Positions 4,557 to 26,580 of a DNA stretch of 56,849 bases are shown here, piece by piece. This DNA comes from a virus. Taxonomy: Duplodnaviria > Caudoviricetes. The stretch is from positions 1 to 56,849 of IMG/VR virus record IMGVR_UViG_3300019871_000001; one strand, 5' to 3'. The notes below the pieces were generated by a model. The model was not told the origin of the DNA and did not search any database. It worked only from the letters and a program-made list of their open reading frames with translations. Within the stretch, counting starts at the first letter, position 1. Each line of letters opens with the position of its first letter. A program made the translations under genes and the position numbers.

Positions 4557-4631
4557 ATGTCCTTGGTGTAATGGGAGCATAGCGGTCTCCAAAACCGTTA
4601 GGTGTGGGTTCGAATCCCGCAGGGCGTGCCA
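4557..4631 (+). tRNA. trnW: tRNA-Trp(CCA)
   Basis: Cloverleaf; anticodon arm GCGGT-CTCCAAA-ACCGT, T-loop TTCGAAT, encoded CCA. Confidence 0.92.
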
Positions 4632-4633
4632 AC

Positions 4634-4663
4634 TTGACAACTACATCCGACATGTGGTACACT
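4634..4663 (+). promoter_or_regulatory. second sigmaA-type promoter in tRNA array 1
   Basis: TTGACA-18nt-TACACT. Confidence 0.65.
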
Positions 4664-4728
4664 CCGTATGTCGAGTTTGAAGGTCTGTAAGGGCGTACAT
4701 GTTCGTCCTGTAAAACTAACATGTTGGT

Positions 4729-4800
4729 GGTCCCATAGTATAATGGTGAGTACGCTAGGTTCTCAACCTATGGGTCGGGGTTCAATTCCCCGTGGGACTG
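4729..4800 (+). tRNA. trnE: tRNA-Glu(CTC)
   Basis: Acceptor GGTCCCA/TGGGACT; loop TTCTCAA; T-arm CGGGG-TTCAATT-CCCCG. Confidence 0.88.
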
Positions 4801-4917
4801 CATTTCGCGCTTTAAAGCACCCCAACAAAGCGCGTGGTTGTTTCGCCGTTTCACAGCTGGAAGAGATGGCGTGGTTTTGCTAGGGTTCGCCATATACATC
4901 GAATGGAATGGCGCGGT

Positions 4918-4989
4918 GCTCTCATCGTATAACGGTGATTACGTGGCCTTGTCAAGGCTAATATCGGAGTTCAACTCTCCGTGGGAGCG
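4918..4989 (+). tRNA. trnD: tRNA-Asp(GTC)
   Basis: Acceptor GCTCTCA/TGGGAGC; arm TGGCC-TTGTCAA-GGCTA. Confidence 0.88.
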
Positions 4990-4993
4990 CTCA

Positions 4994-5056
4994 CTGTACA
5001 CGGCCGTCCCGTCGCATTCGTGCGGAAGTTCGCTACCTCAGGTCGGTCGTGTACAG
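4994..5056 (+). ncRNA. candidate structured small RNA between tRNA-Asp and tRNA-Met
   Basis: 13-bp closing stem CTGTACACGGCCG/CGGTCGTGTACAG enclosing a CGCA-TTCG-TGCG hairpin. Confidence 0.5.
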
Positions 5057-5062
5057 CGTTGA

Positions 5063-5134
5063 TGCGCTATGGTGTAAAGGTAACATGCAGGTCTCATAAG
5101 CCTGAAGCTCTCAGTTCGATTCTGAGTGGCGCTA
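5063..5134 (+). tRNA. trnM: tRNA-Met(CAT)
   Basis: Arm CAGGT-CTCATAA-GCCTG; T-arm CTCAG-TTCGATT-CTGAG; 1:72 mismatch. Confidence 0.88.
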
Positions 5135-5183
5135 CTTGCTTGGGTGCGTACGTACCTGAGAGAACAAAATATAGGAGCGAGAC

Positions 5184-5720
5184 GTGGCAACGTTCACACA
5201 GCGTCCATCAACATTTTACGCAGTGCAGTGGGATGGAACCAACATTGTTGACTTCCAGAACACATTTCCTTGGATGACTTTTATTGCTAATGTTGATGGT
5301 ACGTTGGATACGGGATCGTTTCATCTCCCGTTGACGTGGTGGATGTATGCTGCTGGCAATGTTGCTAGTGATGTCACGTTCCAGAGCATGTTCCAAAGCC
5401 TCGCAGGCGGGGAAGGGTATGCTTTTGCTTCACAGCTTGACATTCCTGAGCGCAGGGTGAAGAATGTTCCTCTCCCAGCGTTTGGGTTGTTGAACCTAAA
5501 GCAAACTCTTACATGCACGTTTGACACTCCAATGCCAAGCGCTGCGTATGAGGTTGCGATTTGCTTCGAAGGTAACGCTTCGTTGGTAGGGGCCCTAAAT
5601 CCACCTATGGTGATTGCAGGGTCGAAGACTTCCACAGGTTTTCAGTTTGCTGTGTCGTCTCTCGTGATTTTGGCGTTCGGGTCGATTAATGCGCGCTGCT
5701 CTGTGGTGGAAACTCCATAA
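5184..5720 (+). CDS. hypothetical protein, possibly a virion accessory
   Basis: GTG start after AGGAG; AVQWDGTN N-domain; beta-rich C-domain (TFDTPMP..YEV..STGF). Confidence 0.65.
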   Translation: MATFTQRPSTFYAVQWDGTNIVDFQNTFPWMTFIANVDGTLDTGSFHLPLTWWMYAAGNVASDVTFQSMFQSLAGGEGYAFASQLDIPERRVKNVPLPAFGLLNLKQTLTCTFDTPMPSAAYEVAICFEGNASLVGALNPPMVIAGSKTSTGFQFAVSSLVILAFGSINARCSVVETP

Positions 5721-5730
5721 CTAAATCTAT

Positions 5731-5802
5731 TGGCGTGTGGTGTAACGGTAACACGAGACCCTGTTAAGGTCCAAGCTCTAGGTTCGAATCCTGGCATGTC
5801 AG
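5731..5802 (+). tRNA. trnN: tRNA-Asn(GTT)
   Basis: Acceptor TGGCGTG/CATGTCA; loop CTGTTAA; T-loop TTCGAAT. Confidence 0.88.
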
Positions 5803-5803
5803 C

Positions 5804-5878
5804 GTTGTGCGTAGCTCAATGGTAGAGCACTGGACTGTGACTCCGGTGATGAGGGTTCGATTCCCTTCGTGCACCCCA
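5804..5878 (+). tRNA. trnH: tRNA-His(GTG)
   Basis: Loop CTGTGAC; G-1:C73; encoded CCA. Confidence 0.9.
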
Positions 5879-5953
5879 CGCGTATGAGCTAGTCTGGTTG
5901 ACTAAGGGAACCTGATAAGTTCCTTGCGCAAGGTTCGATCCCTTGATACGCGA
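5879..5953 (+). tRNA. trnI: tRNA-Ile(GAT)
   Basis: Acceptor CGCGTAT/ATACGCG; arm GGAAC-CTGATAA-GTTCC. Confidence 0.88.
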
Positions 5954-6020
5954 CTGGTGACAATAGCGCGCAACGATAGGCCAGTAAAAGAGCCGACAAT
6001 AGCGGGTGACGATAGCCTGC

Positions 6021-6091
6021 GCTTGGTTAGTATAATGGAAGTGCATCTGGCCTACACCCAGATGGCGGGGGTTCGATTCCCTCACCGAGCA
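6021..6091 (+). tRNA. trnV: tRNA-Val(TAC)
   Basis: Acceptor GCTTGGT/ACCGAGC; arm TCTGG-CCTACAC-CCAGA (C33 instead of U33). Confidence 0.85.
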
Positions 6092-6092
6092 C

Positions 6093-6317
6093 ATGGATAA
6101 CCAACACAAGAAGATCGACGGCTACCGTGATTTCGATCAGGAGACCGTTGACGCAATTAATTACATCAAGTCACTAGAGCGCGATGTTGCGTCTTATTGG
6201 AACATCGTTGGCAATGGTGACGTCGATAAGCGTGAACTGGCATTGGCTAAGACACACTTTGAAGATGCATTCATGCACTTCGTTAAGGCTGTTGCTAAGC
6301 CTGTGACGCCATGGTAA
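6093..6317 (+). CDS. acb2: Acb2-family cyclic-oligonucleotide sponge (anti-CBASS)
   Basis: MDNQHKKIDGYRDFDQETVDAIN..IK...RELALAKTHFEDAFMHFVKAVAKP matches the Acb2 pattern I recall (MDNQHKKIKGYRDL...RWLAIGKT...AIAQP). Confidence 0.85.
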   Translation: MDNQHKKIDGYRDFDQETVDAINYIKSLERDVASYWNIVGNGDVDKRELALAKTHFEDAFMHFVKAVAKPVTPW

Positions 6318-6327
6318 GATGTTTTAT

Positions 6328-6400
6328 GGGGATTTAGCTCATCAGGTAGAGCACTTGCCTTGCAAGCAAGAGGCGTCGGGTTCGAGTCCCGAATTCTCCA
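6328..6400 (+). tRNA. trnA: tRNA-Ala(TGC)
   Basis: GGGGATT start; arm CTTGC-CTTGCAA-GCAAG; T-loop TTCGAGT. Confidence 0.92.
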
Positions 6401-6410
6401 CGTTACACAA

Positions 6411-6484
6411 CAGGCTGTAGCTCAGTTTGGTAGAGTAGTCGCTTTGGAAGCGAGCGGTCGGAGGTTCAAATCCTCCCAGCCTGA
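6411..6484 (+). tRNA. trnP: tRNA-Pro(TGG)
   Basis: Acceptor CAGGCTG/CAGCCTG; loop TTTGGAA; T-loop TTCAAAT. Confidence 0.92.
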
Positions 6485-6498
6485 CTTTAGGAACACAA

Positions 6499-7326
6499 AT
6501 GGATGTAAACGAATACGCAAGGCGTAAGCAAACGATCCTCAATCGCATGATTGCGGGTCTTGTTTACGTCTTTCGTCAGTTTCTCACCCCTTTCTTGACG
6601 CGTCGATCGTGGTTTGATTTCATGCGTGTTATGTACCGCGTGATCAAGCAATACCGTGATGAAGCTACAGAGTTGGCACGTGAGTTTTATGATGACAATC
6701 GTGCCGAGCAACTCCCCGATGAGCCGCGCCATGACATCTTCAAGGACGATCATTACCCTGAAGAGTGGTTGCGTGAGACCATGGAGCCAGTGTACCAGAA
6801 TCTTCAGAAGACTGGCAATATTGAGGGTGCTGTACAGGATACGACGAATCGTGCGGTGAAGGTTGTTGAGGATAGCGCTAGGCGCACTATCCTACGTGGC
6901 CTTGACACCGACACCTCTCAGCCCATTCGCGGCTTTGCGCGTTTTGATCCTCGCCCTCCTACATGCGCGTTCTGCACAATGATGATTTCGCGTGGTCCTG
7001 TGTACGCACACGACACCGCAGGGTTCTCAGGTTCGAAGGAATCTGCCGCATCGTTGTGGCGCGACAATGACACCGATGCGATGAATGAGTTGATGAATCG
7101 CTGGCACCCAGGTTGTACATGCATCGCCGTTCCTGTGTACAAACTCTCAGGATACCCCACAGAGCGTCAGGAAGAAGAGGCACTGAAGATTTACATTGCG
7201 GCACGTAAGCGAGCGCAACGTAAGGGCGATGTTTCCTTTAAGGCAATTTTGAAGGAAATGCGTAAGGACCTTTACAACCCTTCCACAGAGGAAGATGAGA
7301 CAACTCTTACACGAAGTGTTGCTTAA
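6499..7326 (+). CDS. capsid maturation protease / MuF-like protein (L5 gp15-like)
   Basis: CAFCTMMISRGPVY and WHPGCTCIAVPV motifs; lies before the scaffold. Confidence 0.8.
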   Translation: MDVNEYARRKQTILNRMIAGLVYVFRQFLTPFLTRRSWFDFMRVMYRVIKQYRDEATELAREFYDDNRAEQLPDEPRHDIFKDDHYPEEWLRETMEPVYQNLQKTGNIEGAVQDTTNRAVKVVEDSARRTILRGLDTDTSQPIRGFARFDPRPPTCAFCTMMISRGPVYAHDTAGFSGSKESAASLWRDNDTDAMNELMNRWHPGCTCIAVPVYKLSGYPTERQEEEALKIYIAARKRAQRKGDVSFKAILKEMRKDLYNPSTEEDETTLTRSVA

Positions 7327-7384
7327 TGTAGCATGGGTGTGACACAGGCGAGTCTGGTACTTGCTCATTACCCAGGAGGTAACA

Positions 7385-7924
7385 ATGGCTGACAACACTA
7401 ATGCTTCTGACGCTACGGCTACAGGGGATGGTGATAAGGCCAGTGGAAGCGCAGCAACGACAGACGCAGCGGAAGCTACGAAGGTTGCTGAGTTGCCAAA
7501 GTGGGCACAGGATGAATTGTCTCGTGCTCGAAATGATGCGGCGTCATATCGCGCCCGCCTAAAGGACGCTAAGTCTGAGGTGGAGGCAGATGTGCGCAAG
7601 GGATTCGAAGACAAGCTACTCGCTGCTCAGAATGAAAAGACTGAGTTGCAAAACAAGCTTACGGATTCGCAGCTTTTCGGTCTTAAGATCGACGCGGCTC
7701 TTGCAGTTGGTGTTCCTGGCGATCACCTGAAGGCGTTTGCAGATCGCCTACGCGGAGATACGTTCGACGATATTAAGAAGGACGCTGAGACGATTAAGCA
7801 GACGTTCGGTGTTGGCGCTACAGGGCGTGCAACTGACCGTACGGCTGGACTCGGAAATGACAAGCCTTCTACTCCTGACGACGCTCTTGGTGGTTTCATT
7901 GGCCAGAAGCTTGGTTGGAAGTAA
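7385..7924 (+). CDS. scaffolding protein
   Basis: GGAGG RBS; LPKWAQDELSRARNDAASYR coiled coil; precedes the major capsid gene. Confidence 0.85.
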   Translation: MADNTNASDATATGDGDKASGSAATTDAAEATKVAELPKWAQDELSRARNDAASYRARLKDAKSEVEADVRKGFEDKLLAAQNEKTELQNKLTDSQLFGLKIDAALAVGVPGDHLKAFADRLRGDTFDDIKKDAETIKQTFGVGATGRATDRTAGLGNDKPSTPDDALGGFIGQKLGWK

Positions 7925-7944
7925 GTACAGAATAGGACTTTTAA

Positions 7945-9009
7945 ATGGCTTACCAGAATGAGGTATCGCCGAACCGCGATGACCGCCACCAGGGACGCCT
8001 TGCGTATCTCACAGATGATTTGCTTCCTAAGGAAGTAACTGGTCTGTTGTGGGAGCAGGCACAGGAAGCTTCGCTAGTTCTTCGTCTTGGTCGTCAGGTA
8101 CCCGTGGGTTACGGCGAGACTGTTATCCCAATGTCGAGCGTTGAGCCTGAGGTTGGTCAGGTTGGTGTGGGTACACGCCCACAGGACCGTGAGGGTTACC
8201 GTAAGCCTGTGAGTGGTATCGCGTGGGAGAGCCAGTCTTTCGCACCGATCAAGCTTGCTACCATCGTAACGGCGTCTGAGGAGTTCGCTCGCGCCAACAT
8301 CAATGGTATGTGGAGCAACATCACTTCACAGCTTGCACGCGCCATCGGCCGTGGTATCGACCTTGCTGTCTTCCAGGGTAAGCGCCCTGACAACGGTGAC
8401 CCGCTTCTTGGCATCACCAACAACGGTTACGTGAACCTTGCGCCTAACCCTATCAACTACCCTACAACTCCTGACTCTCTGGACGTTGACCTTACGAACG
8501 CTTGGGCTACCCTTGTAAACCGAGGATACAACCCTAACGCTTGGGCAATCGACCAGCGCTTCGTACCGCCTGTCCTTACCGCTCGTGACGCTCAGGGTAA
8601 CTTGATCTTCACTGGTGGACTTAACTTGGCTCAGAACTCCTTGGGTAACCTTGCGGGTCTTCCAGTTGAGCAGGGTCGCGCAGTAAGCGGAACTGTTGGT
8701 ATGGGAACTGACACTGGAACGCGTGCCGTTCTTGGTGACTGGTCTCGTTTGGTTTATGGTTACGCTGACCAGGTTCGCATTAAGGTCACCGACACTGGTG
8801 TAATTACCAGCGCCGATGGCACGCAGGTTAACCTTTGGCAGACTAACCAGGTCGCTATCTTGATCGAGACTACGTTCGGGTGGTTGGTTGACCCTAACGC
8901 TTTCGTTCGCCTTACCGACACTGCTGGAATCGTTCCTGGTACTACTACTCCTGCTGGCGAGAGCGCAGCGGATGCAGTTCCTACCGAGTTCCCTGGTCCG
9001 GCTAGCTAA
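7945..9009 (+). CDS. major capsid protein (HK97 fold)
   Basis: PIKLATIVTASEEFAR, GDWSRLVYGYADQ, NLWQTNQVAILIE resemble L5 gp17. Confidence 0.93.
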   Translation: MAYQNEVSPNRDDRHQGRLAYLTDDLLPKEVTGLLWEQAQEASLVLRLGRQVPVGYGETVIPMSSVEPEVGQVGVGTRPQDREGYRKPVSGIAWESQSFAPIKLATIVTASEEFARANINGMWSNITSQLARAIGRGIDLAVFQGKRPDNGDPLLGITNNGYVNLAPNPINYPTTPDSLDVDLTNAWATLVNRGYNPNAWAIDQRFVPPVLTARDAQGNLIFTGGLNLAQNSLGNLAGLPVEQGRAVSGTVGMGTDTGTRAVLGDWSRLVYGYADQVRIKVTDTGVITSADGTQVNLWQTNQVAILIETTFGWLVDPNAFVRLTDTAGIVPGTTTPAGESAADAVPTEFPGPAS

Positions 9010-9021
9010 TCTCCCGTGAAC

Positions 9022-9058
9022 GGGGAGGGTGTTCCCGTTTGGGGCCGCCCTCCCCTTT
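9022..9058 (+). terminator. hairpin/terminator after capsid gene
   Basis: GGGGAGGGTG...CGCCCTCCCC followed by TTT. Confidence 0.6.
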
Positions 9059-9084
9059 CGCATTTTCAGAGCATGGAAGGTGCT

Positions 9085-9474
9085 ATGAAATCCTGCCATA
9101 TTTACCAGTGTGAAGTAAAGCATTACGGTCGCGGGTTTTGTCGACGACACTACAGTTCTTTGTTTCGTGGCGGTGTCTTTGGAAACTACGTTAGGCCAGA
9201 ACCTAAGCCACCACGTGTGTCACAGTGGAAACACGATAAGTACGGCTACGTAAAAACTTCCATTGGAAATAAGACAGTATCACAGCACCGACTAGTAATG
9301 GAAATCATGCTTGATCGTCCTTTGCTTTCTGGTGAAGAAGTGCACCACAAGAACGGTGTTCGCGACGATAACCGGCCGGAAAATCTAGAGTTGTGGGTCG
9401 TCAGTCAACCCAAGGGCCAGCGTCCTGAAGACCTAGTAGAATGGGCAGAAGAAATTCTCAGGCGGTACAAATGA
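9085..9474 (+). CDS. HNH homing endonuclease
   Basis: QHRLVME...EVHHKNGVRDDNRPENLEL; N-terminal C..C/CRRHY Zn motif. Confidence 0.9.
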   Translation: MKSCHIYQCEVKHYGRGFCRRHYSSLFRGGVFGNYVRPEPKPPRVSQWKHDKYGYVKTSIGNKTVSQHRLVMEIMLDRPLLSGEEVHHKNGVRDDNRPENLELWVVSQPKGQRPEDLVEWAEEILRRYK

Positions 9475-21466: not shown

Positions 21467-21468
21467 TT

Positions 21469-21726
21469 ATGTGGACTGCTAAGTTCTGGAAGGAAGCGAC
21501 GGAGCGCGCCATCAAGACGGCCGCACAGTTTGCCCTTGTGTTCCTCGGAGCAGATGGGGGTGGACTTCTCACGTTGAATTGGAATGTGGCCGGTATTGCT
21601 ATTGCTGGTGGAGCGCTCGCTTCATACATCACTAGTATCATCAGCGCCGCTACGCCTTCAGGGGAAATCACTCCGAACTTCCGTAGTGGTAAGACTACAG
21701 ATGGCAACCCTGACACGGACGCCTAA
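21469..21726 (+). CDS. holin (r1t-like)
   Basis: FWKEATERAIKTAAQ plus two hydrophobic segments; after lysin. Confidence 0.85.
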   Translation: MWTAKFWKEATERAIKTAAQFALVFLGADGGGLLTLNWNVAGIAIAGGALASYITSIISAATPSGEITPNFRSGKTTDGNPDTDA

Positions 21727-21736
21727 AAATTGATAT

Positions 21737-21777
21737 GGAAAAGCCCCACACATCATCGTGATGTGTGGGGCTTTTCC
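21737..21777. terminator. bidirectional terminator between convergent arms
   Basis: GGAAAAGCCCCACACATCA-TCG-TGATGTGTGGGGCTTTTCC. Confidence 0.9.
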
Positions 21778-21940
21778 TATGCGTCCTTGACACCCATCTC
21801 TAGAAACGCAAACGCTGTCTTGAACTCTCGCCTGGCAAGTTCCACGAAGTCTTCGTCGACATCAGGAGCACCACGTAGTGATCCTACCACGAGATAGACA
21901 CGCGCGCGGAGACGTTCGATGTCCTTGTCATACTGATGAC

Positions 21941-22147
21941 TCACACATCCTCCTCTGCTTCATCATCTTCATCGTCGGTGTTGATGGCGTTAGCAATGGC
22001 CTCACATGCTCCTGCCAGCCCCATCAACAACACAAATACAATCCCACCAATTAGCAATGCCATCATCGTTGCGCCGAGAGCGACGAATACATAACCCACG
22101 CTCCCTAGAACGATAATCAAGGCTAGGCATCCTCGCATCTCGATCAC
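21941..22147 (-). CDS. small membrane protein
   Basis: Two TMs with acidic tail. Confidence 0.6.
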   Translation of the reverse strand: MIEMRGCLALIIVLGSVGYVFVALGATMMALLIGGIVFVLLMGLAGACEAIANAINTDDEDDEAEEDV

Positions 22148-22250
22148 TTCCCTTCGCTATTTAACCCACATGTCCTCATCAATGATGTTACTTTCTAACT
22201 CCAACAGGTTTTGAATCGCTTGCTCTGCGTCAAATTCTTCATCGTACAAC

Positions 22251-22808
22251 TCACAACCCCAATTCGTTGATCAACTTCTGCGCCGCATTGCTGAGATCTT
22301 GCCGTGTACCGTTGTTGAACACAACACGATCAACTGCGATATCTCCCACTGAAACATCAGAAGTGTGTGCATTAACAGGGCCAAAACCATCGCGCACAAT
22401 CCTCACCATAACACCACCATACGCCTTAACCAACGTTGCCTCATTGGCGTATCGCACACCTGTGATGGCTGTGTGCACCCCGTCCTCTTCGTTGGCGATG
22501 ATGGTGCGCTCAGCAACACGCAACCACACGTCCTGCCCTAGGATGTTACGACAAGCTTCCGTGCCCAGTACTTGAAGATATTCGCGAACGCCCTTGTGAT
22601 TCTTCGCTTCAGTGTACCCTTCCCTATTCACCACGTCAACGTAACTGTACCAATCACGTTGGTCATCTGACAGAATAGGATTCAGCACCATTGCCATCTT
22701 ATGCAAGGGGTCGGAGAATGCCATGGTTCGTGTGCGGGAGCGCAAGGCAAGGGATTTGGCGAACTCATCCTTCCCTGCCTGTGCGTAGCCTGTAAGCCCA
22801 ATGATCAT
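22251..22808 (-). CDS. deoxynucleoside monophosphate kinase
   Basis: MIIGLTGYAQAGKD P-loop; REYLQVLGTE; VRYANE. Confidence 0.88.
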   Translation of the reverse strand: MIIGLTGYAQAGKDEFAKSLALRSRTRTMAFSDPLHKMAMVLNPILSDDQRDWYSYVDVVNREGYTEAKNHKGVREYLQVLGTEACRNILGQDVWLRVAERTIIANEEDGVHTAITGVRYANEATLVKAYGGVMVRIVRDGFGPVNAHTSDVSVGDIAVDRVVFNNGTRQDLSNAAQKLINELGL

Positions 22809-22809
22809 G

Positions 22810-23001
22810 TTAGTCCTTAAACGCAGCGACAACGGCAATGATCATGAGAAGTACAAGGAACAACGCAAACCCAATCCACAGCGGAGAAAACACCCACCAC
22901 CACGACCACGCAATGACATTCGTCAGCTTCAGGATCACGAACGCTAGTGTAGTAAGACTGAGGATACCGACGCCACCACTGTTGTTAGAAGAGTCACTCA
23001 C
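22810..23001 (-). CDS. small membrane protein
   Basis: LKLTNVIAWSWWWVFSPLW, a common phage membrane motif. Confidence 0.7.
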   Translation of the reverse strand: MSDSSNNSGGVGILSLTTLAFVILKLTNVIAWSWWWVFSPLWIGFALFLVLLMIIAVVAAFKD

Positions 23002-23143
23002 TTTTCTGCCTCCTTTTTCTTCTCGTTCTTTTTCTTGAGCTCCTTGATCACCTTGTCATAAACAGGTGTCGGCTCCTTCTTCATTGATGGTAGCACTCCA
23101 CTCACCTTCTTGTCAACTGCTTCTGTAAACCACTTACTCGCCA

Positions 23144-23491
23144 TCATTCATCCCAACGTTTGGTGTTCTTGTTGCGCCCCGCCGCATCGTACAATTCGTA
23201 GTCGGAACCGCCTACCTGTGACTTAGAGTGCCCGATGCACAGTTTATTACCCTTACACTTCCCACGCTTGCAAGGATCGTTACGCGTCACCTTCCCCTTA
23301 ACCTTCGCAACAACACGACTCTTCGTCTCAATTTTAACTTGGCGCTTAACGATCTTAGGTTCGACAGTCCCCTTGCGCGATGCCGCCTTCTTCATGTTCC
23401 TATGCGCAGTATCGCATTTACTCTTCGTGTCAAACCACACAACGTTACTACCTGTGCGCACACCGTACTGTGTTTCAGTCTTACCAAACAT
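23144..23491 (-). CDS. basic hypothetical protein
   Basis: ORF track; Lys-rich with Cys cluster. Confidence 0.6.
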   Translation of the reverse strand: MFGKTETQYGVRTGSNVVWFDTKSKCDTAHRNMKKAASRKGTVEPKIVKRQVKIETKSRVVAKVKGKVTRNDPCKRGKCKGNKLCIGHSKSQVGGSDYELYDAAGRNKNTKRWDE

Positions 23492-23673
23492 TACAGGCGC
23501 TCCTCTCGAAGTTCAGCTTCCCTAATTGAAGGGTCAGCAGCCATCTTAGCACGTGTAGACTTAGCCTTTGCCAATGACGTACCAGAAGGCAAGCGCTTAA
23601 CTCTCCAATCTCTATCATTGTGCTTCTTGTATGCGATCCTGAAGATCCGTGTAGGTTTTCCAGCCATGCGGCA

Positions 23674-23702
23674 ACACTAGCCCATCATCGTGAGGTTGTC
23701 AA
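23674..23702 (-). promoter_or_regulatory. sigmaA-type promoter
   Basis: TTGACA-17nt-TAGTGT on minus strand, after the hairpin closing tRNA array 2. Confidence 0.65.
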
Positions 23703-23756
23703 CCCCCAAATGAAACAACCCCTCGCACAGTCGGTTAGACCATACGAGGGGAAGCG

Positions 23757-23830
23757 AGCCACTGACAGGAATCGAACCCGCGTACTCCATCTTACAAGGA
23801 TGGCGCTCAGCCAACATGAGCAACAGAGGC
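23757..23830 (-). tRNA. trnT: tRNA-Thr(TGT)
   Basis: Arm CCATC-CTTGTAA-GATGG; T-loop TTCGATT. Confidence 0.9.
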
Positions 23831-23917
23831 ATACCGACTTTATGGCAGTCGTCGCCACCCAAATCCATGGGCGTCCCGTTCATGCTAAGGATTTTACGGG
23901 CAACTATGTTTTTAACG

Positions 23918-23989
23918 TGGGCCCACACAGCATCGAACTGTGATCTTCCGGGTAAGAGCCGGAGGTTTTACCAATTATACTATAGGCCC
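23918..23989 (-). tRNA. trnK: tRNA-Lys(CTT)
   Basis: Acceptor GGGCCTA/TGGGCCC; arm TCCGG-CTCTTAC-CCGGA. Confidence 0.88.
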
Positions 23990-23993
23990 AATG

Positions 23994-24353
23994 TCACCTG
24001 TAACGCTTTTGATACTCTCTCTTTAGTACAGCGCACCTATCACAGTAGCAGTTCTTCTTACCACTGATACCCTCGCCGTGATCCACGCTCTGTTCGGTTC
24101 CTGATTTCTTAGCGTGGCATGACTTGCATCGTAGCACACACTTCTCAAGTTCCGCAACTACCTTACTGCGCTTATGAGTAATGCATTTTCCTACGTCGAA
24201 AGATTTAGTTGTTCGATCAACATGGTCAAATTCTAGCTGAGATACGGTACCACAGTCTACACACTTCCCGCCAAGCATGTCTACGTATTCTGCGCGTAGC
24301 CTGTGGTACCGCTTACTCATGTATGCTTTCATGTACTCGTTTGAATTGCTCAT
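23994..24353 (-). CDS. HNH endonuclease inside tRNA array 2
   Basis: GGKCVDCG...LEFDHVD...KCVLRCKSCHAKK. Confidence 0.88.
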   Translation of the reverse strand: MSNSNEYMKAYMSKRYHRLRAEYVDMLGGKCVDCGTVSQLEFDHVDRTTKSFDVGKCITHKRSKVVAELEKCVLRCKSCHAKKSGTEQSVDHGEGISGKKNCYCDRCAVLKREYQKRYR

Positions 24354-24417
24354 GAAAGCATACTACATTAAGAGTTCTAACTACGAAGTTAAGCGCCTCA
24401 CGTATGAAGCGCCGAGT

Positions 24418-24654
24418 TTAGTATCCGAACAACTCTTCCATGCGTGCGGAAATTTGAACTTCGTGCCTAACATCTTCCGAATCTACATAGTAGATGTGAA
24501 CTTCATGCACGTCATACGAGCAAGTTTCACATCCGCCCGTGTTGTATGACTCTTCGTAGTAAGATGTGACACGCACCACATCTTCAATCTCATGTTCCTC
24601 ACGCAAGAACTCCGCTAGGAACTCATGGAAGCGATCCTTCCACGTCTCTGCCAT
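24418..24654 (-). CDS. acidic hypothetical protein
   Basis: ORF track; GGCETCSYD motif. Confidence 0.65.
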   Translation of the reverse strand: MAETWKDRFHEFLAEFLREEHEIEDVVRVTSYYEESYNTGGCETCSYDVHEVHIYYVDSEDVRHEVQISARMEELFGY

Positions 24655-24675
24655 CTTGTCAACCCCTTCCTTGAG

Positions 24676-24746
24676 AAAGTTGCCCCGGAGTTGAACCGGG
24701 CTAAGTAGATTTGCAGTCTACCACATAACCGCTCTGACAGCAACTC
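24676..24746 (-). tRNA. trnC: tRNA-Cys(GCA)
   Basis: Arm GTAGA-CTGCAAA-TCTAC; U73 discriminator. Confidence 0.88.
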
Positions 24747-24750
24747 ACGG

Positions 24751-24835
24751 CGGGGACAGGAGGATTCGAACCTCCGTCGCTGTTACACGATTCACTTTAG
24801 CAAAGTGATGCTATCGGCCGCTCAGCCATATCCCC
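24751..24835 (-). tRNA. trnS: tRNA-Ser(GCT)
   Basis: Arm TCACT-TTGCTAA-AGTGA; long variable arm; G73. Confidence 0.9.
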
Positions 24836-24841
24836 ATACTA

Positions 24842-25183
24842 TTATTTAACAACCCACTTACCATTCGCGTCTTTCACTTCCGTGCGAATGTTACGTGGAT
24901 CGTTGATTGAACGTTCAACTTCTGCACTTAGCAAATCGTCTCGTCCAACACGCTTCTTAATGTACAGTTGAAACTCAGGACTGTCAACCATACGCCTGAA
25001 CGCAAGCTTCTTGTTTTGCAACTGCGAACGCTCGTCTCTAGCTTCACCACGCGCCCCGCTCTCGTGGTGAATTACACGAACGCCCGTATCACGTTTGTTC
25101 TGATTCTGTCCACCCTTGCCGCCTGAGCGGAATGTTTGGACTTCACAATCATCAATCTTGACTGAGAACGCTAGCTCGCTCAC
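24842..25183 (-). CDS. GGQ-domain peptidyl-tRNA hydrolase / release-factor-like ribosome rescue protein
   Basis: TFRSGGKGGQNQNKRDTGVRVIH...ERSQLQNKKLA (RF-1 catalytic domain only). Confidence 0.9.
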   Translation of the reverse strand: MSELAFSVKIDDCEVQTFRSGGKGGQNQNKRDTGVRVIHHESGARGEARDERSQLQNKKLAFRRMVDSPEFQLYIKKRVGRDDLLSAEVERSINDPRNIRTEVKDANGKWVVK

Positions 25184-25254
25184 GGGCTGTCTCCCAATCT
25201 AATTCGTTGGCGTCTTCTACAATGACCAATAGATAATCTTCAATGTTTTTCATG

Positions 25255-25335
25255 CGGAACCCTGAGGAATCGAACCCCACGCTTGACGCGCCCTACGGTT
25301 TTCAAGACCGCTTGCCTCCATAGGCGGAAGACTCC
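25255..25335 (-). tRNA. trnS: tRNA-Ser(TGA)
   Basis: Arm GCGGT-CTTGAAA-ACCGT; long variable arm. Confidence 0.85.
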
Positions 25336-25339
25336 ATAC

Positions 25340-25419
25340 TGCACATAGTGGTAGGATTCGAACCTACGAATCGGTACCCTCCTCGGGCCCGTCGTGTGCC
25401 TCTCGACTCACATAGTGCA
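25340..25419 (-). ncRNA. tRNA-like RNA with non-canonical acceptor and anticodon arms
   Basis: Perfect T-arm GTAGG-TTCGAAT-CCTAC and D-like arm, but extended bulged acceptor and no U33 anticodon loop. Confidence 0.6.
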
Positions 25420-25422
25420 TTG

Positions 25423-25494
25423 CTCTCCCGTCTGGATTCGAACCAAAATCAGGCAGGTTCAGAGCCTGCTATCTTACCATTAGAACACAGGAGA
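25423..25494 (-). tRNA. trnQ: tRNA-Gln(CTG)
   Basis: Arm GCAGG-CTCTGAA-CCTGC; acceptor TCTCCTG/CGGGAGA. Confidence 0.9.
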
Positions 25495-25630
25495 TTAACG
25501 CGGTCCACGACTCCGCACGGCAATCGTATGTATGCTTACCACATCATGCTGAACGTGGCCACAGTGCCGAGTGTTACTTGCGCGTAACTTTCGTGTATAA
25601 TATTGCGTCATGCAGCCCCGGCGGTGCACA

Positions 25631-25708
25631 TGGTACCACTGAGAGGATTCGAACCTCCGACGCCTAGCTTCGTAGGCTAGCGCTCTATCCAGACTGAGCT
25701 ACAGCGGC
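25631..25708 (-). tRNA. trnR: tRNA-Arg(ACG)
   Basis: Arm CTAGC-CTACGAA-GCTAG; encoded CCA. Confidence 0.93.
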
Positions 25709-25715
25709 ATGTGAT

Positions 25716-25850
25716 TTACTTCTTGATCTTCTTCAGCTTCGCCTTGGCGTGTACTCCACACAACCATAGCGTCTTCTTACCTGTAATAACAAGCTGTGTA
25801 GTAGCAATGTTACCACAGAAATTCGTGTCACACTTCTTATCTGACAACAT
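25716..25850 (-). CDS. small basic Cys/His protein (44 aa)
   Basis: GAGGAGG RBS; MLSDKKCDTNFC...LCGVHAK. Confidence 0.5.
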   Translation of the reverse strand: MLSDKKCDTNFCGNIATTQLVITGKKTLWLCGVHAKAKLKKIKK

Positions 25851-25877
25851 TCCTCCTCTTGTTATTAAATTGTTACG

Positions 25878-25949
25878 TACCCTAGGCAGGATTCGAACCT
25901 GCGACCAAACGCTTAGGAGGCGCTAACTCTTCCGCTGAGCTACAAGGGT
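25878..25949 (-). tRNA. trnR: tRNA-Arg(CCT)
   Basis: Arm AGCGC-CTCCTAA-GCGTT; T-loop TTCGAAT. Confidence 0.9.
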
Positions 25950-26003
25950 ATGTATCGCTCCCACAGCATATGCCCACGAAGGGCGCAATGTACAGCGATA
26001 ACG

Positions 26004-26076
26004 TGCGGTATGAGGGACTCGAACCCTCACATTCAGTTTGGAAGACTGACATGCTAGCCATTAACATCAATACCAC
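26004..26076 (-). tRNA. trnG: tRNA-Gly(TCC)
   Basis: Arm TCAGT-CTTCCAA-ACTGA. Confidence 0.9.
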
Positions 26077-26119
26077 ATGTGCAGAGCCTCACCACCATAT
26101 AGGACCAGAGGATGCAACG

Positions 26120-26199
26120 TCTCAGCACTAGGAATTGAACCTAGTCGCCCAAAGGCTACGGTGTTACAGACCGCTGGGCAGCCATCGCCCACTACTGAG
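26120..26199 (-). tRNA. trnY: tRNA-Tyr(GTA)
   Basis: Arm GCGGT-CTGTAAC-ACCGT; long variable arm. Confidence 0.85.
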
Positions 26200-26209
26200 T
26201 TGTAAAACG

Positions 26210-26281
26210 TCTTCAAAGACGGGATCGAACCGCCGCATCTGGTACTTCACACCAGCGCTCTACCAACTGAGCTATTTGAAG
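26210..26281 (-). tRNA. trnF: tRNA-Phe(GAA)
   Basis: Acceptor CTTCAAA/TTTGAAG; arm CTGGT-GTGAAGT-ACCAG (unusual G32/G37/U38). Confidence 0.85.
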
Positions 26282-26337
26282 TTACGACAGTTTTGTTTTG
26301 GCGTGACACCCATTGAAGCGTTTCCTAGGACACTTTC

Positions 26338-26367
26338 AATCTAGCACACCGTTCAGGCGTCTGTCAA
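26338..26367 (-). promoter_or_regulatory. internal sigmaA-type promoter of tRNA array 2
   Basis: TTGACA-18nt-TAGATT. Confidence 0.65.
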
Positions 26368-26374
26368 CTGAGCG

Positions 26375-26459
26375 TACACAAGGTGGGACTCGAACCCACA
26401 CCCACTTCCGTGGACCGCATTTTGAGTGCGGCGCGTCTGCCAATTCCAGCCACTCGTGC
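26375..26459 (-). tRNA. trnL: tRNA-Leu(CAA)
   Basis: Arm CCGCA-CTCAAAA-TGCGG; long variable arm. Confidence 0.9.
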
Positions 26460-26507
26460 ATAACACCTTTAGCTGTGCACATTTGTGGTGACAGCGCTTC
26501 GGTGTAG

Positions 26508-26580
26508 TGAGCCCCGGGAGATTCGAACTCCCACTGTACAGGGTCTAAGCCTGTTTCCTCTGCCGTTGGGATAGAGGCCC
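26508..26580 (-). tRNA. trnL: tRNA-Leu(TAG), short variable arm
   Basis: Arm ACAGG-CTTAGAC-CCTGT; A73. Confidence 0.85.

What the first reader, a model, noticed from the sequence alone, without database searches (positions are those of the whole stretch)
4557..26580. Minimal, non-redundant tRNA set covering all 20 amino acids, split 10+10 between two arrays
Seen: array 1 (4557-6484, +) encodes W,E,D,M,N,H,I,V,A,P. Array 2 (23757-26580, -) encodes T,K,C,S,S,Q,R,R,G,Y,F,L,L. No amino acid is shared and only the six-codon amino acids have two tRNAs, 23 in all. Four-codon boxes use U34 (Val, Ala, Pro, Thr, Ser, Gly, Leu) or A34 (Arg ACG). Purine-ending split boxes all use C34 (Glu CUC, Lys CUU, Gln CUG, Arg CCU, Leu CAA), avoiding the xm5(s2)U34 species. 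Inference: a ~57-kb siphovirus carries an organelle-like, near self-sufficient decoding kit, perhaps to replace host tRNAs destroyed by defence nucleases or by the phage.
Basis: partly seen in the sequence, partly recalled or inferred. Interest (0 to 1): 0.85.

Follow-up and report, generated by a model that had tools for sequence, protein, structure and literature searches.

The report
Compact phage with complete tRNA set
A small soil phage of actinobacteria carries exactly one transfer RNA gene for each codon family, covering all 20 amino acids, and writes its late genes almost only in codons those tRNAs can read, so it probably supplies much of its own decoding; large phage tRNA sets are known, but mainly from much larger genomes.

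Summary
The window is a complete 56,849-bp virus record. ARAGORN calls the same 23 tRNAs: 10 on + (4557-6485) and 13 on - (23756-26580). They have 23 different anticodons and cover all 20 amino acids. Rfam passes 20 of the 23. Tyr, Ser-UGA and Ile are atypical, but relatives conserve a tRNA in each slot.

Five related records keep the arrays. Four keep the same ten tRNAs in array 1 (a fifth adds Glu-UUC), and three keep array 2. A more distant relative splits its set 4+13, so the 10+10 split is inherited gene order.

Codon usage tracks the set: ATA .03, AAA .10, TTA .02, AGA .02, CGG .02, CAA .26, GAA .38. The match is strongest in late genes. Both arrays sit behind consensus host-type promoters.

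"Self-sufficient" is too strong. Seven codons are unreadable and 106 of 109 ORFs contain one. CCA is encoded in only 3 of 23 tRNAs. There is one Met tRNA of unclear role, and no phage synthetase or TadA was found among the ORFs searched.

RNA-repair genes, a GGQ hydrolase, Acb2 and ArdA are also present.

The host is unknown. The only lead is a high-GC Amycolatopsis prophage.

I rate this a new variant of a known kind. This scan has noted complete phage tRNA sets on other DNA before.

The parts
4522..4550 (+). Promoter-like site TTGACA-17-TAGAGT. It ends 6 nt before tRNA-Trp.
   Evidence: A site in the same position occurs in G001, G004 and G005.
4557..4631 (+). tRNA-Trp (CCA), with CCA encoded
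   Evidence: ARAGORN; Rfam 54.1 bits; 3' end
4634..4663 (+). Second promoter-like site, TTGACA-18-TACACT, with TG before the -10
4729..4801 (+). tRNA-Glu (CUC)
   Evidence: Rfam 63.7 bits
4918..4990 (+). tRNA-Asp (GUC)
   Evidence: Rfam 54.7 bits
5063..5135 (+). tRNA-Met (CAU), the only CAU tRNA. It has a U1xU72 mismatch, U11:A24, and 2 of the 3 G-C pairs typical of initiators. Whether it is an initiator or an elongator is unresolved.
   Evidence: Rfam 57.8 bits
5184..5720 (+). 178-aa ORF inserted between tRNA-Met and tRNA-Asn. It is not found in the five related records, and in L001 Met and Asn lie 14 nt apart.
   Evidence: No Pfam, PHROG or NCBIfam hit. Absent in relatives. Weak lectin / tail-fibre-tip lead only.
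5731..5803 (+). tRNA-Asn (GUU)
   Evidence: Rfam 56.8 bits
5804..5878 (+). tRNA-His (GUG), with encoded G-1 (5804) facing C73 and with CCA encoded
   Evidence: Rfam 58 bits
5879..5954 (+). tRNA-Ile (GAU), with a 3-bp D stem and a large D loop
   Evidence: ARAGORN. No Rfam match. Cloverleaf with compensatory changes at 11 of 21 pairs across 6 sequences.
6021..6092 (+). tRNA-Val (UAC), with C33 in place of the usual U33
   Evidence: Rfam 58.7 bits. Anticodon loop CC[TAC]AC in G000, G001 and G002.
6093..6317 (+). Acb2/Tad1-type sponge gene embedded in array 1
   Evidence: Pfam PF24729, 55.4 bits. Not found in the five relatives.
6328..6401 (+). tRNA-Ala (UGC), with G3:U70
   Evidence: Rfam 65.5 bits
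6411..6485 (+). tRNA-Pro (UGG)
   Evidence: Rfam 63.8 bits
23719..23751 (-). Terminator-like hairpin (14-bp stem plus a T run) just after tRNA-Thr, the last gene of array 2
23756..23830 (-). tRNA-Thr (UGU)
   Evidence: Rfam 46.9 bits
23917..23989 (-). tRNA-Lys (CUU)
   Evidence: Rfam 55.7 bits
23994..24353 (-). HNH endonuclease gene inside array 2
   Evidence: phrog_4234, 83.1 bits. Not found in relatives.
24675..24746 (-). tRNA-Cys (GCA)
   Evidence: Rfam 43.8 bits
24749..24835 (-). tRNA-Ser (GCU), with a long variable arm
   Evidence: Rfam 58.3 bits
24842..25183 (-). Stand-alone RF-1 / GGQ-domain gene (113 aa) inside array 2
   Evidence: Pfam PF00472, 61.2 bits; phrog_3122, 150.5 bits. GGQ appears in the search pattern KGGQNQNK. 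70% identical copies in G001 and G002.
24959..24987 (-). Internal promoter-like site, TTGACA-17-TACATT
   Evidence: Near-identical sites occur in G001 and G002.
25254..25335 (-). tRNA-Ser (UGA), with a shortened variable arm
   Evidence: ARAGORN. Only 30.4 bits, to the tRNA-Sec model. Conserved in 4 relatives.
25341..25418 (-). tRNA-like element with a perfect T arm but no U33. Not counted as a tRNA.
   Evidence: ARAGORN only at ps85. The sequence of this slot is not conserved in relatives.
25422..25494 (-). tRNA-Gln (CUG)
   Evidence: Rfam 53.5 bits
25631..25708 (-). tRNA-Arg (ACG), anticodon loop CU-ACG-AA, with CCA encoded
   Evidence: Rfam 61.3 bits
25877..25949 (-). tRNA-Arg (CCU)
   Evidence: Rfam 61.2 bits
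26003..26076 (-). tRNA-Gly (UCC)
   Evidence: Rfam 56.4 bits
26119..26199 (-). tRNA-Tyr (GUA), with a long variable arm, A73, and 3 nt between the acceptor and D stems
   Evidence: ARAGORN. Rfam 25.1 bits, below the cut-off. Relatives hold a GUA tRNA in the same slot.
26209..26281 (-). tRNA-Phe (GAA)
   Evidence: Rfam 61.2 bits
26338..26367 (-). Internal promoter-like site, TTGACA-18-TAGATT
26374..26459 (-). tRNA-Leu (CAA), with a long variable arm
   Evidence: Rfam 42.5 bits
26507..26580 (-). tRNA-Leu (UAG) by anticodon. It is 74 nt with a short variable arm and A73.
   Evidence: Rfam 48.8 bits. Compensatory changes at 11 of 20 pairs.
26701..26729 (-). Promoter-like site TTGACA-17-TAGAGT, 121 nt upstream of array 2. 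Both hexamers match those of the site before array 1.
39229..40335 (+). T4 Rnl1-type RNA ligase (associated tRNA repair)
   Evidence: PF09511, 45.1 bits; phrog_562, 206 bits
41187..42269 (+). Polynucleotide kinase-phosphatase (associated tRNA repair)
   Evidence: PF25109, 151.6 bits, plus PF13671; phrog_505, 248.8 bits
43334..44083 (+). Second RNA ligase (PF09414 type)
   Evidence: PF09414, 36.5 bits; phrog_548, 77.3 bits

Best explanation
The two arrays are a phage-private tRNA pool with one decoder per codon box.

Shown from sequence:
- There are 23 conserved, structurally constrained tRNA genes with 23 different anticodons, covering all 20 amino acids.
- Each array sits behind consensus host-type (TTGACA ... 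TANNNT) promoter-like sites of the class that precedes the non-structural genes. Array 2 ends in a strong terminator.
- Late structural genes are written almost only in codons this pool can read.

Inferred mechanism:
- Host RNA polymerase transcribes both arrays from early in infection.
- Host RNase P and RNase Z, the host CCA-adding enzyme, host TadA and host synthetases mature and charge the tRNAs.
- The pool builds up and then carries most of the decoding of late mRNAs.
- Those mRNAs use a codon dialect that a high-GC actinomycete host would read poorly: U- and A-ending in four-codon boxes, G-ending only in split purine boxes, and almost no AAA, UUA, AGA, AUA or CGG.

The kit therefore buffers late protein synthesis against a shortage of host tRNA. 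That shortage could come from codon mismatch, from shut-off, or from tRNA-cleaving defences.

The kit is not autonomous. GAA and CAA codons still need host tRNAs, as may initiation.
For: 1. The genes are real and conserved. ARAGORN of 23 and Rfam passes 20 of 23. Compensatory changes occur at 11 of 21 pairs in Ile, 10 of 19 in Met, 11 of 20 in Leu-UAG and 6 of 28 in Ser-UGA. Identity elements G3:U70 (Ala) and encoded G-1:C73 (His) are present.

2. Relatives keep the set. G001 (56.5 kb), G002 (47.5 kb), G004 and L001 have the same ten tRNAs in array 1. G001, G002 and G004 have the same array 2. Their proteins are 69-85% identical to the window's.

3. Completeness is not chance: 8 of 200,000 random draws of 23 anticodons covered all 20 amino acids.

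4. Codon usage follows the set. Over 14,208 codons: ATA .03, AAA .10, TTA .02, AGA .02, CGG .02, CAA .26, GAA .38, at GC3 .55.
- Within the same genes, A/(A+G) is .49 in U34 four-codon boxes and .25 in C34 split boxes (p 8e-78).
- C/(C+T) is .55 in G34 boxes and .38 in U34 boxes (p 7e-49).

5. The match is strongest in the late block (6,516 codons). There, unreadable codons make up 3.1%, with AAA 7/268, TTA 2/211, ATA 2/345 and CGG 6/333. C/(C+T) is .54 against .31 (p 7e-45). The presumed early right-end block shows no such contrast (.53 against .49, p .3). The capsid gene has only 2 unreadable codons in 353.

6. Controls. Ten related or tRNA-rich actinophage loci show the same two contrasts at about half the size or less, and CGG/CGN of .17-.35 against .04-.09 in this clade. 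L005 has a similar GC3 (.50) but 9.8% unreadable codons.

7. Promoters. TTGACA-N16-18-TANNNT occurs 27 times against 1.64 +/- 1.43 expected, and 25 of the 27 are co-oriented with the local genes. The only + strand copies in the 22-kb late block are the two at array 1. Sites of the same type lie directly before the arrays in G001-G005, except array 1 of G003.

8. Host lead. An Amycolatopsis vastitatis contig carries the homologous tail module (57-71% identity over the matched tail segments) at 68% GC and GC3 .85. In it, 16% of four-box codons end in A or T, against 61% in the window's late genes, and CGG is 54/146.
Against: - The host is not known. The Amycolatopsis link is one tail-module match, so a host whose own tRNA pool imposes this bias is not excluded.
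- G003 lacks Lys, Ile and Arg-CCU tRNAs, yet still has low AAA (.25), ATA (.06) and AGA. Part of the bias is therefore lineage- or host-level.
- Control phages show the same box contrasts in the same direction, with differences up to .12-.14. The clade differs in degree, not in kind.
- U34 decoding does not by itself predict the preference for U-ending codons over A-ending codons in four-codon boxes (.38 against .23).
- GAA is 38% of Glu codons, and 106 of 109 ORFs contain an unreadable codon.
- There are no expression data.
- Gene calls are my own longest-ORF heuristics.
- Amino-acid identities rest on anticodons. Leu-UAG has a short variable arm, and Tyr, Ile and Ser-UGA are atypical.
Confidence: 0.55

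Rival explanations
1. The main selective reason is counter-defence. The host, or the phage's own shut-off, cleaves or depletes host tRNAs, and the phage replaces the whole pool with versions that escape cleavage. On this view it chooses C34 isoacceptors instead of the modified-U34 Lys, Glu and Gln species that anticodon nucleases classically target. It also heals cut tRNAs with Pnkp and Rnl1, and frees stalled ribosomes with the GGQ protein.
For: - A full set includes tRNAs that any host already has in plenty (Trp, Met, and C34 readers of G-ending codons). That fits replacement better than supplementation.
- Pnkp, an Rnl1-type ligase and a second RNA ligase are present here and in G001 and G002.
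- A GGQ gene lies inside array 2. In the phage collection its homologues are mostly in Mycobacterium phages (205 of 235 records). The top-listed ones are tRNA-rich types of roughly 80-160 kb.
- Acb2 and ArdA show investment in counter-defence.
- Unusual anticodon loops occur: C33 in tRNA-Val in three genomes, and G32 in tRNA-Phe. These are the kind of change that van den Berg et al. 2023 propose for nuclease escape (PMC10264068, Results section read).
Against: - No nuclease, host or target is identified.
- tRNA-Ser(UGA), which that paper reports mycobacteriophages avoid, is present and highly conserved here.
- G003 has 17 tRNAs, and no Rnl1, Pnkp or ligase homologue was found in it (95% complete).
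- C34 readers in split boxes are also common in the related tRNA-rich loci L027 and L028. They could simply reflect ancestry in hosts rich in G-ending codons.
- This reading does not explain the U/A-rich four-box dialect.
Confidence: 0.28
2. The tRNAs are ordinary boosters. On this view, codon bias in the phage is set by the host's own tRNA pool and by translational selection on highly expressed late genes. The phage copies simply raise the supply of the most used decoders, and the apparent match to the phage set is a by-product.
For: - The bias is strongest in late, highly expressed genes, as translational selection predicts.
- G003 keeps most of the bias without several of the tRNAs.
- Control phages show the same direction of box contrasts.
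Against: - CGG/CGN is .04-.09 in all six clade genomes, against .17-.35 in ten other actinophage loci and 54/146 in the Amycolatopsis prophage.
- C-ending codons are the least used in four-codon boxes (.17 in late genes), although typical actinobacterial hosts carry G34 tRNAs there (established knowledge, not tested here).
- The nearest cultured phage relatives all infect high-GC Actinobacteria, whose preferences are the opposite.
Confidence: 0.12
3. The arrays are selfish or hitch-hiking mobile tRNA array units, spread by homing endonucleases, with no tuned role in this phage.
For: - HNH endonuclease genes lie in and near the arrays (23994-24353, 27982-28524, 9016-9474).
- Lineage-specific insertions (Acb2, the 178-aa ORF, an HNH gene) show that the arrays are insertion hot spots.
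- tRNA array units are known to move among Mycobacterium chromosomes, plasmids and phages (PMC5966550, abstract seen in the listing).
Against: - Order and content are conserved while proteins have diverged to 69-85% identity.
- There is widespread compensatory change.
- The arrays have conserved promoters of their own.
- Codon usage matches the set.
Confidence: 0.05

Closest known systems
tRNA-rich mycobacteriophages: Cluster C1 (~155 kb, about 33 tRNAs), and siphoviruses and M. abscessus prophages of about 78-83 kb such as Nanosmite and EniyanLRS, which are like the Cluster M phages I recall
   Same: - They are actinobacteriophages with dense tRNA arrays interspersed with small ORFs.
- They share a stand-alone RF-1/GGQ gene, 56-68% identical, next to the tRNAs (loci L027 and L028).
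- They also use C34 readers for Glu, Gln, Lys and Leu, and Arg-ACG.
   Different: - Their genomes are 1.4 to 2.8 times larger.
- In the 20-kb loci I saw, their sets are redundant and incomplete. L027 has 20 tRNAs plus a tmRNA with no Ala, Ser or Tyr. L028 has 21 tRNAs with no Ile, Val or Tyr. Only part of each genome was scanned.
- Van den Berg et al. found no codon-usage difference between covered and uncovered codons in C1 phages (PMC10264068). Here the difference is strong.
- The naming of Cluster M is recalled. The Pope et al. 2014 paper was not available to read.
Phage tRNA gene clusters as surveyed by Morgado and Vicente 2019 (PMC6409571; sections 2.2, 3.1 and 3.2 read)
   Same: - The tRNA density is high: 5.2 per kb in array 1 and 4.6 per kb in array 2, against their threshold of 2 per kb.
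- This looks like a virulent phage: no integrase was seen among the ORFs I searched.
- All 20 isotypes are present, as in 8 of their clusters.
   Different: - Their clusters have 15-37 genes in genomes of 72-617 kb.
- This set is split into arrays of 10 and 13, each below their 15-gene threshold.
- The genomes here are 47.5-56.8 kb.
T4 tRNA repair (Pnkp plus Rnl1 against the PrrC anticodon nuclease). The biology is recalled; the paper read mentions it.
   Same: Pfam and PHROG matches to a polynucleotide kinase-phosphatase and a T4 Rnl1-type ligase sit in the same genome as the phage tRNAs.
   Different: - The matches are at domain level only (Rnl1 45 bits in Pfam, 58.9 bits to TIGR02308 against a cut-off of 242).
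- No cognate nuclease is known.
- Unlike T4, this phage carries no tRNA-Lys(UUU).
Minimal decoding sets of organelles and Mycoplasma (recalled knowledge)
   Same: There is one tRNA per four-codon box with U34, a single tRNA-Met, and about 22-29 tRNAs in all.
   Different: - Those sets read every sense codon, using modified U34 in split boxes and a lysidine tRNA-Ile.
- This set uses C34 and leaves GAA, AAA, CAA, UUA, AGA, AUA and CGG unread.
Low-GC, tRNA-rich phages of high-GC actinomycetes, such as the ~128-kb Streptomyces phages Gilson, Forrest and Jada
   Same: The tRNA-Ala is 86% identical over 76 nt. The reported pattern of low phage GC with many tRNAs is recalled.
   Different: Their genomes are more than twice as long, and no other DNA similarity was found.

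Membership tests
Canonical tRNA (Rfam RF00005) | Covariance-model score at or above 29 bits | tested here: met
   Met for 20 of 23. Not met for Tyr (25.1 bits), for Ser-UGA (no RF00005 hit listed; 30.4 bits to tRNA-Sec) or for Ile (no hit).
Canonical tRNA (Rfam RF00005) | Cloverleaf maintained by compensatory substitutions in relatives | tested here: met
   Pairs with double changes: Ile 11 of 21, Met 10 of 19, Leu-UAG 11 of 20, Ser-UGA 6 of 28. The other 19 tRNAs were not tested this way.
Canonical tRNA (Rfam RF00005) | Made, CCA-tailed and aminoacylated with the amino acid implied by the anticodon | not testable with these tools
   No RNA run holds the region. CCA is encoded in only 3 of 23. 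Leu-UAG lacks the long variable arm.
Virus tRNA gene cluster as defined by Morgado and Vicente 2019 | Density of at least 2 tRNA genes per kb | tested here: met
   10 genes in 1.93 kb and 13 genes in 2.83 kb. Definition read.
Virus tRNA gene cluster as defined by Morgado and Vicente 2019 | At least 15 tRNA genes in one cluster | tested here: not met
   The arrays have 10 and 13 genes and lie 17 kb apart on opposite strands.
Organelle-like or Mycoplasma-like complete minimal decoding set | A single U34 tRNA in each four-codon box | tested here: met
   Val, Ala, Pro, Thr, Ser, Gly and Leu have U34. Arg has A34.
Organelle-like or Mycoplasma-like complete minimal decoding set | Every sense codon readable, with U34 in split purine boxes and a tRNA-Ile for AUA | tested here: not met
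   C34 is used in Glu, Lys, Gln, Leu-UUR and Arg-AGR. There is no second CAU tRNA and no CCG tRNA. Seven codons are unreadable under standard wobble rules.
Organelle-like or Mycoplasma-like complete minimal decoding set | An initiator function is provided | tested here: inconclusive
   There is a single tRNA-Met. The 1:72 position is mismatched in 3 of 5 clade members and is a weak A-U pair in the other 2. But it has U11:A24 and only 2 of the 3 G-C pairs.
T4-type tRNA healing and sealing (Pnkp plus Rnl1) | A kinase-phosphatase and an Rnl1-family ligase are both encoded | tested here: met
   PF25109 at 151.6 bits plus PF13671, and PF09511 at 45.1 bits. phrog_505 and phrog_562. NCBIfam equivalog cut-offs are not reached.
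T4-type tRNA healing and sealing (Pnkp plus Rnl1) | Repairs anticodon-loop breaks made by a host nuclease | not testable with these tools
   Host and nuclease are unknown.
ArfB-like / RF-1 GGQ peptidyl-tRNA hydrolase | GGQ-bearing RF-1 domain | tested here: met
   PF00472 at 61.2 bits against a cut-off of 35. KGGQNQNK appears among the search patterns.
ArfB-like / RF-1 GGQ peptidyl-tRNA hydrolase | Equivalog-level match to ArfB, PrfH or a release factor | tested here: not met
   ArfB 25 bits against a cut-off of 100. PrfH 53 against 167. PrfB 56 against 370.
tRNA adenosine(34) deaminase TadA (considered for ORF 37475-37885) | Best match to TadA rather than to dCMP deaminase | tested here: not met
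   ComEB / dCMP deaminase 100.8 bits against TadA 36.9 bits. The best solved structures are dCMP deaminases at 1.5e-22, against TadA at 1e-5.

The most novel reading that the evidence does not exclude
This clade of 47-57-kb phages may run its late protein synthesis on a private, reduced code. On this reading:
- Five sense codons (AAA, UUA, AGA, AUA, CGG) have been effectively purged from the structural genes.
- Each remaining codon box is served by exactly one phage tRNA.
- The single tRNA-Met, with its weak 1:72 pair, serves both initiation and elongation, as in animal mitochondria.
- Several tRNAs have a rebuilt architecture: a short-armed Leu-UAG, short Tyr forms in relatives, and C33 in Val.

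Late translation would then proceed even when the host tRNA pool is destroyed, needing from the host only tRNA-Glu(UUC) and tRNA-Gln(UUG), or tolerating their loss.
Probability: 0.2. Interest if true: 0.8.

Novelty: new variant of a known kind. Interest (0 to 1): 0.6.

Why it matters
Why phages carry tRNAs has long been debated. The main ideas are codon compensation, replacement of tRNAs lost to host shut-off, and escape from anticodon nucleases.

This clade is a compact and clean test case:
- It has a complete set with no redundancy.
- The genome is small enough to engineer.
- The late genes are visibly tuned to that set.
- Repair and rescue genes sit alongside the tRNAs.
- Natural variants exist that add Glu-UUC or lack several tRNAs.

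If a host can be found, deleting one array or single tRNAs would show directly how far a phage can uncouple its translation from the host tRNA pool. It would also show whether tRNAs with unusual architectures (a short-armed Leu, C33 in Val, a 3-bp D stem in Ile) are charged by host synthetases.

Tried and rejected
- **Phage TadA for the A34 tRNA-Arg.** ORF 37475-37885 hits deaminase families, but it is a dCMP deaminase. Rejected.
- **Amber suppressor in relatives.** ARAGORN calls a 'tRNA-Pyl(CUA)' in G004 and L017 where the window has Arg-CCU. The alignment and an alternative perfect 5-bp stem give CCU with C33. I therefore do not count it as a suppressor or as a loss of Arg-CCU.
- **Covariation of codon use with tRNA gain and loss across the six genomes.**
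  - GAA is .47-.48 in the two genomes with Glu-UUC and .34-.40 in the four without.
  - AAA is highest (.25) in G003, which lacks a Lys tRNA.
  - But G003 is less biased everywhere, so this is suggestive only.
- **Leader-peptide attenuator before the arrays**, a lead from earlier scan notes. Array 1 has no leader. The 121-nt leader of array 2 has an open frame of 37 codons using 14 of the 20 amino acids. That frame runs into the tRNA without a stop, and I saw no terminator there. Not supported.
- **Close cultured relatives.** No phage record matches the arrays beyond single tRNAs. The best TerL and capsid identities are 56% and 51%, to L5-like mycobacteriophages.
- **Host from the endolysin.** The best phage hits (about 50% identity, N-terminal amidase only) are Brevibacterium and Arthrobacter phages. 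The genome scan with the endolysin found nothing.
- **Sequencing runs.** No RNA holder is listed. The only holders of half or more of the words are two runs of one soil-metagenome sample that may be the source. No reads were laid.
- **ORF 5184-5720.** No family hit. The atlas scores are below 0.9, which is a lead only.
- **Pope et al. 2014 (Cluster M).** This paper could not be found in the library. What I say about Cluster M is recalled.
- **Supplementary tables.** Those of PMC6409571 and PMC10264068 were not seen. They may list small genomes with many tRNAs, or target motifs, that bear on the novelty claim.
- **Print search.** None of the listed titles or abstracts describes one.

Full report
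**What the window is.** The window is one whole IMG/VR virus record of 56,849 bp, which CheckV rates as 100% complete. Overall GC is 51%.

It encodes:
- the small and large terminase subunits, portal, protease, scaffold and major capsid protein;
- head-closure and tail-terminator proteins, the major tail protein, tail chaperones and a 777-aa tape measure;
- an amidase endolysin.

This is a siphovirus-type layout. The best cultured relatives are L5-like mycobacteriophages, at only 56% (TerL) and 51% (capsid) identity. No phage record shares DNA with the arrays beyond single tRNAs. I saw no integrase among the ORFs I searched.

**The observation.** Rfam's tRNA model passes 20 of them. The three exceptions are:
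- Tyr, at 25.1 bits, below the cut-off;
- Ser-UGA, which reaches only 30.4 bits, and only to the tRNA-Sec model;
- Ile, with no match at all.

These three are odd rather than dead.
- Ile has a 3-bp D stem that is kept by different base pairs in different relatives. Its cloverleaf has compensatory changes at 11 of 21 pairs.
- Ser-UGA is conserved, with an invariant anticodon arm.
- A GUA-anticodon tRNA occupies the Tyr slot in four relatives. Three of them hold a short 70-73-nt form that appears only at a relaxed threshold.

Other structural points:
- Ala has G3:U70.
- His has an encoded G-1 opposite C73.
- Leu-UAG is a 74-nt tRNA with a short variable arm in all five genomes examined, with 11 of 20 pairs covarying.
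- Val has C33 in three genomes.
- Only Trp, His and Arg-ACG encode CCA.
- One further tRNA-like element lies at 25341-25418 (-). It has a perfect T arm but no U33, and its sequence is not conserved in relatives.

Drawing 23 distinct anticodons at random from a 46-member bacterial repertoire covers all 20 amino acids in 8 of 200,000 trials.

**Relatives.** IMG/VR holds a small clade of related phages.

| Record | Length | Completeness |
|---|---|---|
| G001 | 56.5 kb | 100% |
| G002 | 47.5 kb | 98% |
| G003 | 49.1 kb | 95% |
| G004 | 35.5 kb | partial |
| G005 | 31.8 kb | partial |
| L001 | fragment | - |

Their core proteins are 68-90% identical to the window's.
- G001, G002, G004 and L001 carry the same ten tRNAs in array 1. 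G005 adds Glu-UUC.
- G001, G002 and G004 carry the same array 2.
- G003 has 17 tRNAs split 4+13, with Ala and Asp in array 2.

The 10+10 split is therefore recent shared gene order, not a rule. 'No amino acid shared' needs only that the Ser, Arg and Leu pairs each stay together.

**Codon usage.** I used my own ORF sets: longest ORFs within strand blocks, checked with a second greedy set. The seven codons that the set cannot read are used as follows, each as a share of its amino acid (overall GC3 is .55):

| Codon | ATA | AAA | TTA | AGA | CGG | CAA | GAA |
|---|---|---|---|---|---|---|---|
| Share | .03 | .10 | .02 | .02 | .02 | .26 | .38 |

Two within-gene contrasts show that this is not base composition:
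- A/(A+G) at third positions is .49 in the boxes read by U34 tRNAs and .25 in boxes read by C34 tRNAs.
- C/(C+T) is .55 in boxes read by G34 tRNAs and .38 in boxes read by U34 tRNAs.

The late block is the most extreme:
- unreadable codons are 3.1% of all codons;
- AAA is 7/268, TTA 2/211, ATA 2/345 and CGG 6/333;
- C/(C+T) is .54 against .31.

The leftward right-end block, which carries ArdA and many consensus promoters and is presumably early, shows no C/T contrast. The capsid gene has two unreadable codons in 353, both GAA.

Controls temper this result. Ten other actinophage loci show the same two contrasts in the same direction, at about half the size or less. G003 keeps low AAA, ATA and AGA without the matching tRNAs. 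CGG avoidance (.04-.09 of CGN) is specific to the clade, against .17-.35 elsewhere.

**Expression signals.** TTGACA-N16-18-TANNNT occurs 27 times, against 1.64 expected by chance. Twenty-five of the 27 point the same way as the local genes.

In the 22-kb late block, the only + strand copies are the two at array 1. The first ends 6 nt before tRNA-Trp. Array 2 has one site 121 nt upstream, two internal sites, and a terminator with a 14-bp stem straight after its last tRNA.

Sites of the same type stand just before the arrays in G001-G005. The one exception is array 1 of G003. A protein with sigma-70 region 4 (50161-50862) may drive late transcription. That role is an inference.

**Surroundings.** Array 2 holds a 113-aa GGQ / RF-1 domain gene. 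Its homologues in the phage collection lie in 205 Mycobacterium phages out of 235 records, and the top-listed ones are tRNA-rich types of roughly 80-160 kb.

Elsewhere in the genome there are:
- a polynucleotide kinase-phosphatase, a T4 Rnl1-type ligase and a second RNA ligase, also present in G001 and G002;
- Acb2, inside array 1;
- ArdA;
- ThyX, a dCMP deaminase and a dNMP kinase.

No aminoacyl-tRNA synthetase, CCA-adding enzyme or TadA was seen among the ORFs I searched.

**Host.** The host is unknown. A tail protein has a 63%-identical homologue on a contig of an Amycolatopsis vastitatis assembly, with the neighbouring tail genes in the same order. That contig has 68% GC, GC3 of .85 and no tRNAs. 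In it, only 16% of four-box codons end in A or T, and CGG is 54 of 146 CGN codons. This is one lead.

The cultured relatives all infect high-GC Actinobacteria, which points the same way. Together these suggest a host whose preferences in four-codon boxes are the opposite of the phage's.

**Reading.** The most likely account (0.55) is a phage-private tRNA pool. It would be made early from host-type promoters and matured and charged by host enzymes. The late genes are tuned to it, and it would buffer late translation against a short supply of host tRNAs.

Sequence alone cannot say whether the shortage comes mainly from codon mismatch or from tRNA cleavage and shut-off. The full set of 'unneeded' tRNAs and the repair and rescue genes favour replacement. 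The U/A-rich four-box dialect favours mismatch.

'Organelle-like' and 'self-sufficient' overstate the case: seven codons are unread, and 106 of 109 ORFs contain one.

**Comparison and novelty.** Complete or near-complete tRNA sets are known in large phages. In Morgado and Vicente's survey, clusters of 15-37 genes occur in genomes of 72-617 kb, and eight of them hold all 20 isotypes. [quoted passage not shown]

Earlier notes of this scan describe complete sets on other DNA, including a 65.6-kb phage (not checked by me).

What is unusual here is the combination of:
- genomes of 47-57 kb;
- exactly one tRNA per codon box;
- two promoter-driven arrays, one of them embedded in the head-gene module;
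- late genes purged of five codons.

I class it as a new variant of a known kind.

Noticed in passing
whole window; e.g. 28611-28639 (-), 28743-28771 (+), 55137-55165 (-): There are 27 perfect TTGACA-N16-18-TANNNT sites against 1.64 expected by chance. Of these, 25 are co-oriented with the local genes. They are absent from the late operon except at tRNA array 1. This suggests a dense set of host-type early and middle promoters.
   Followed up: partly
4550-4557 (+); same arrangement in G001, G004, G005: The -10 element ends 6-7 nt before the first base of tRNA-Trp in four genomes. The first tRNA may therefore be transcribed with no 5' leader.
   Followed up: partly
25341-25418 (-): A tRNA-like element with a perfect T arm and no U33 fills a tRNA-sized slot between Ser-UGA and Gln. 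Relatives hold unrelated hairpin-forming sequence in that slot.
   Followed up: partly
L020:11852-11923 (G001 31717-31788) and the matching stretch of G002: Relatives carry an extra tRNA-like gene between Phe and Tyr. In G001 it scores 41.7 bits to Rfam tRNA but its anticodon loop has G33. In G002 ARAGORN gives it an 8-nt anticodon loop.
   Followed up: no
6021-6092 (+) and the Val genes of G001 and G002; L016:9907-9982: C33 replaces the near-universal U33 in tRNA-Val(UAC) in three genomes. It probably does so too in the Arg-CCU homologue of G004 and L017, which ARAGORN labels Pyl(CUA).
   Followed up: partly
6093-6317 (+): An Acb2/Tad1-type cyclic-nucleotide sponge gene sits between tRNA-Val and tRNA-Ala. 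Its ATG comes directly after the tRNA. None of the five related records has it.
   Followed up: partly
5184-5720 (+): A 178-aa ORF with no family match is inserted between tRNA-Met and tRNA-Asn. The near-identical fragment L001 lacks it. There is a weak atlas lead to lectin-like tail-fibre tips.
   Followed up: partly
9016-9474 (+), 23994-24353 (-), 27982-28524 (-): There are three HNH / endonuclease VII-type genes. One follows the capsid gene, one lies inside array 2 and one lies beside the exonuclease gene.
   Followed up: no
L104 (Amycolatopsis vastitatis contig), 1679-6047: A 68%-GC contig of an actinomycete assembly carries the same tail-tip module, with matched segments mostly 41-71% identical and the 826-aa tail protein 63% identical. 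It is probably a prophage and is the only host lead.
   Followed up: partly
50161-50862 (+): A 233-aa protein with sigma-70 region 4 is a candidate late transcription factor. G001, G002, G003 and G005 all conserve it.
   Followed up: no
54158-54610 (-): An ArdA-type antirestriction gene lies in the promoter-rich right-end block.
   Followed up: no
22251-22838 (-), 37475-37885 (+), 47444-48115 (+): The genome encodes a dNMP kinase, a dCMP deaminase and ThyX. Together these form a small nucleotide-metabolism set that may relate to the low GC of the phage.
   Followed up: no
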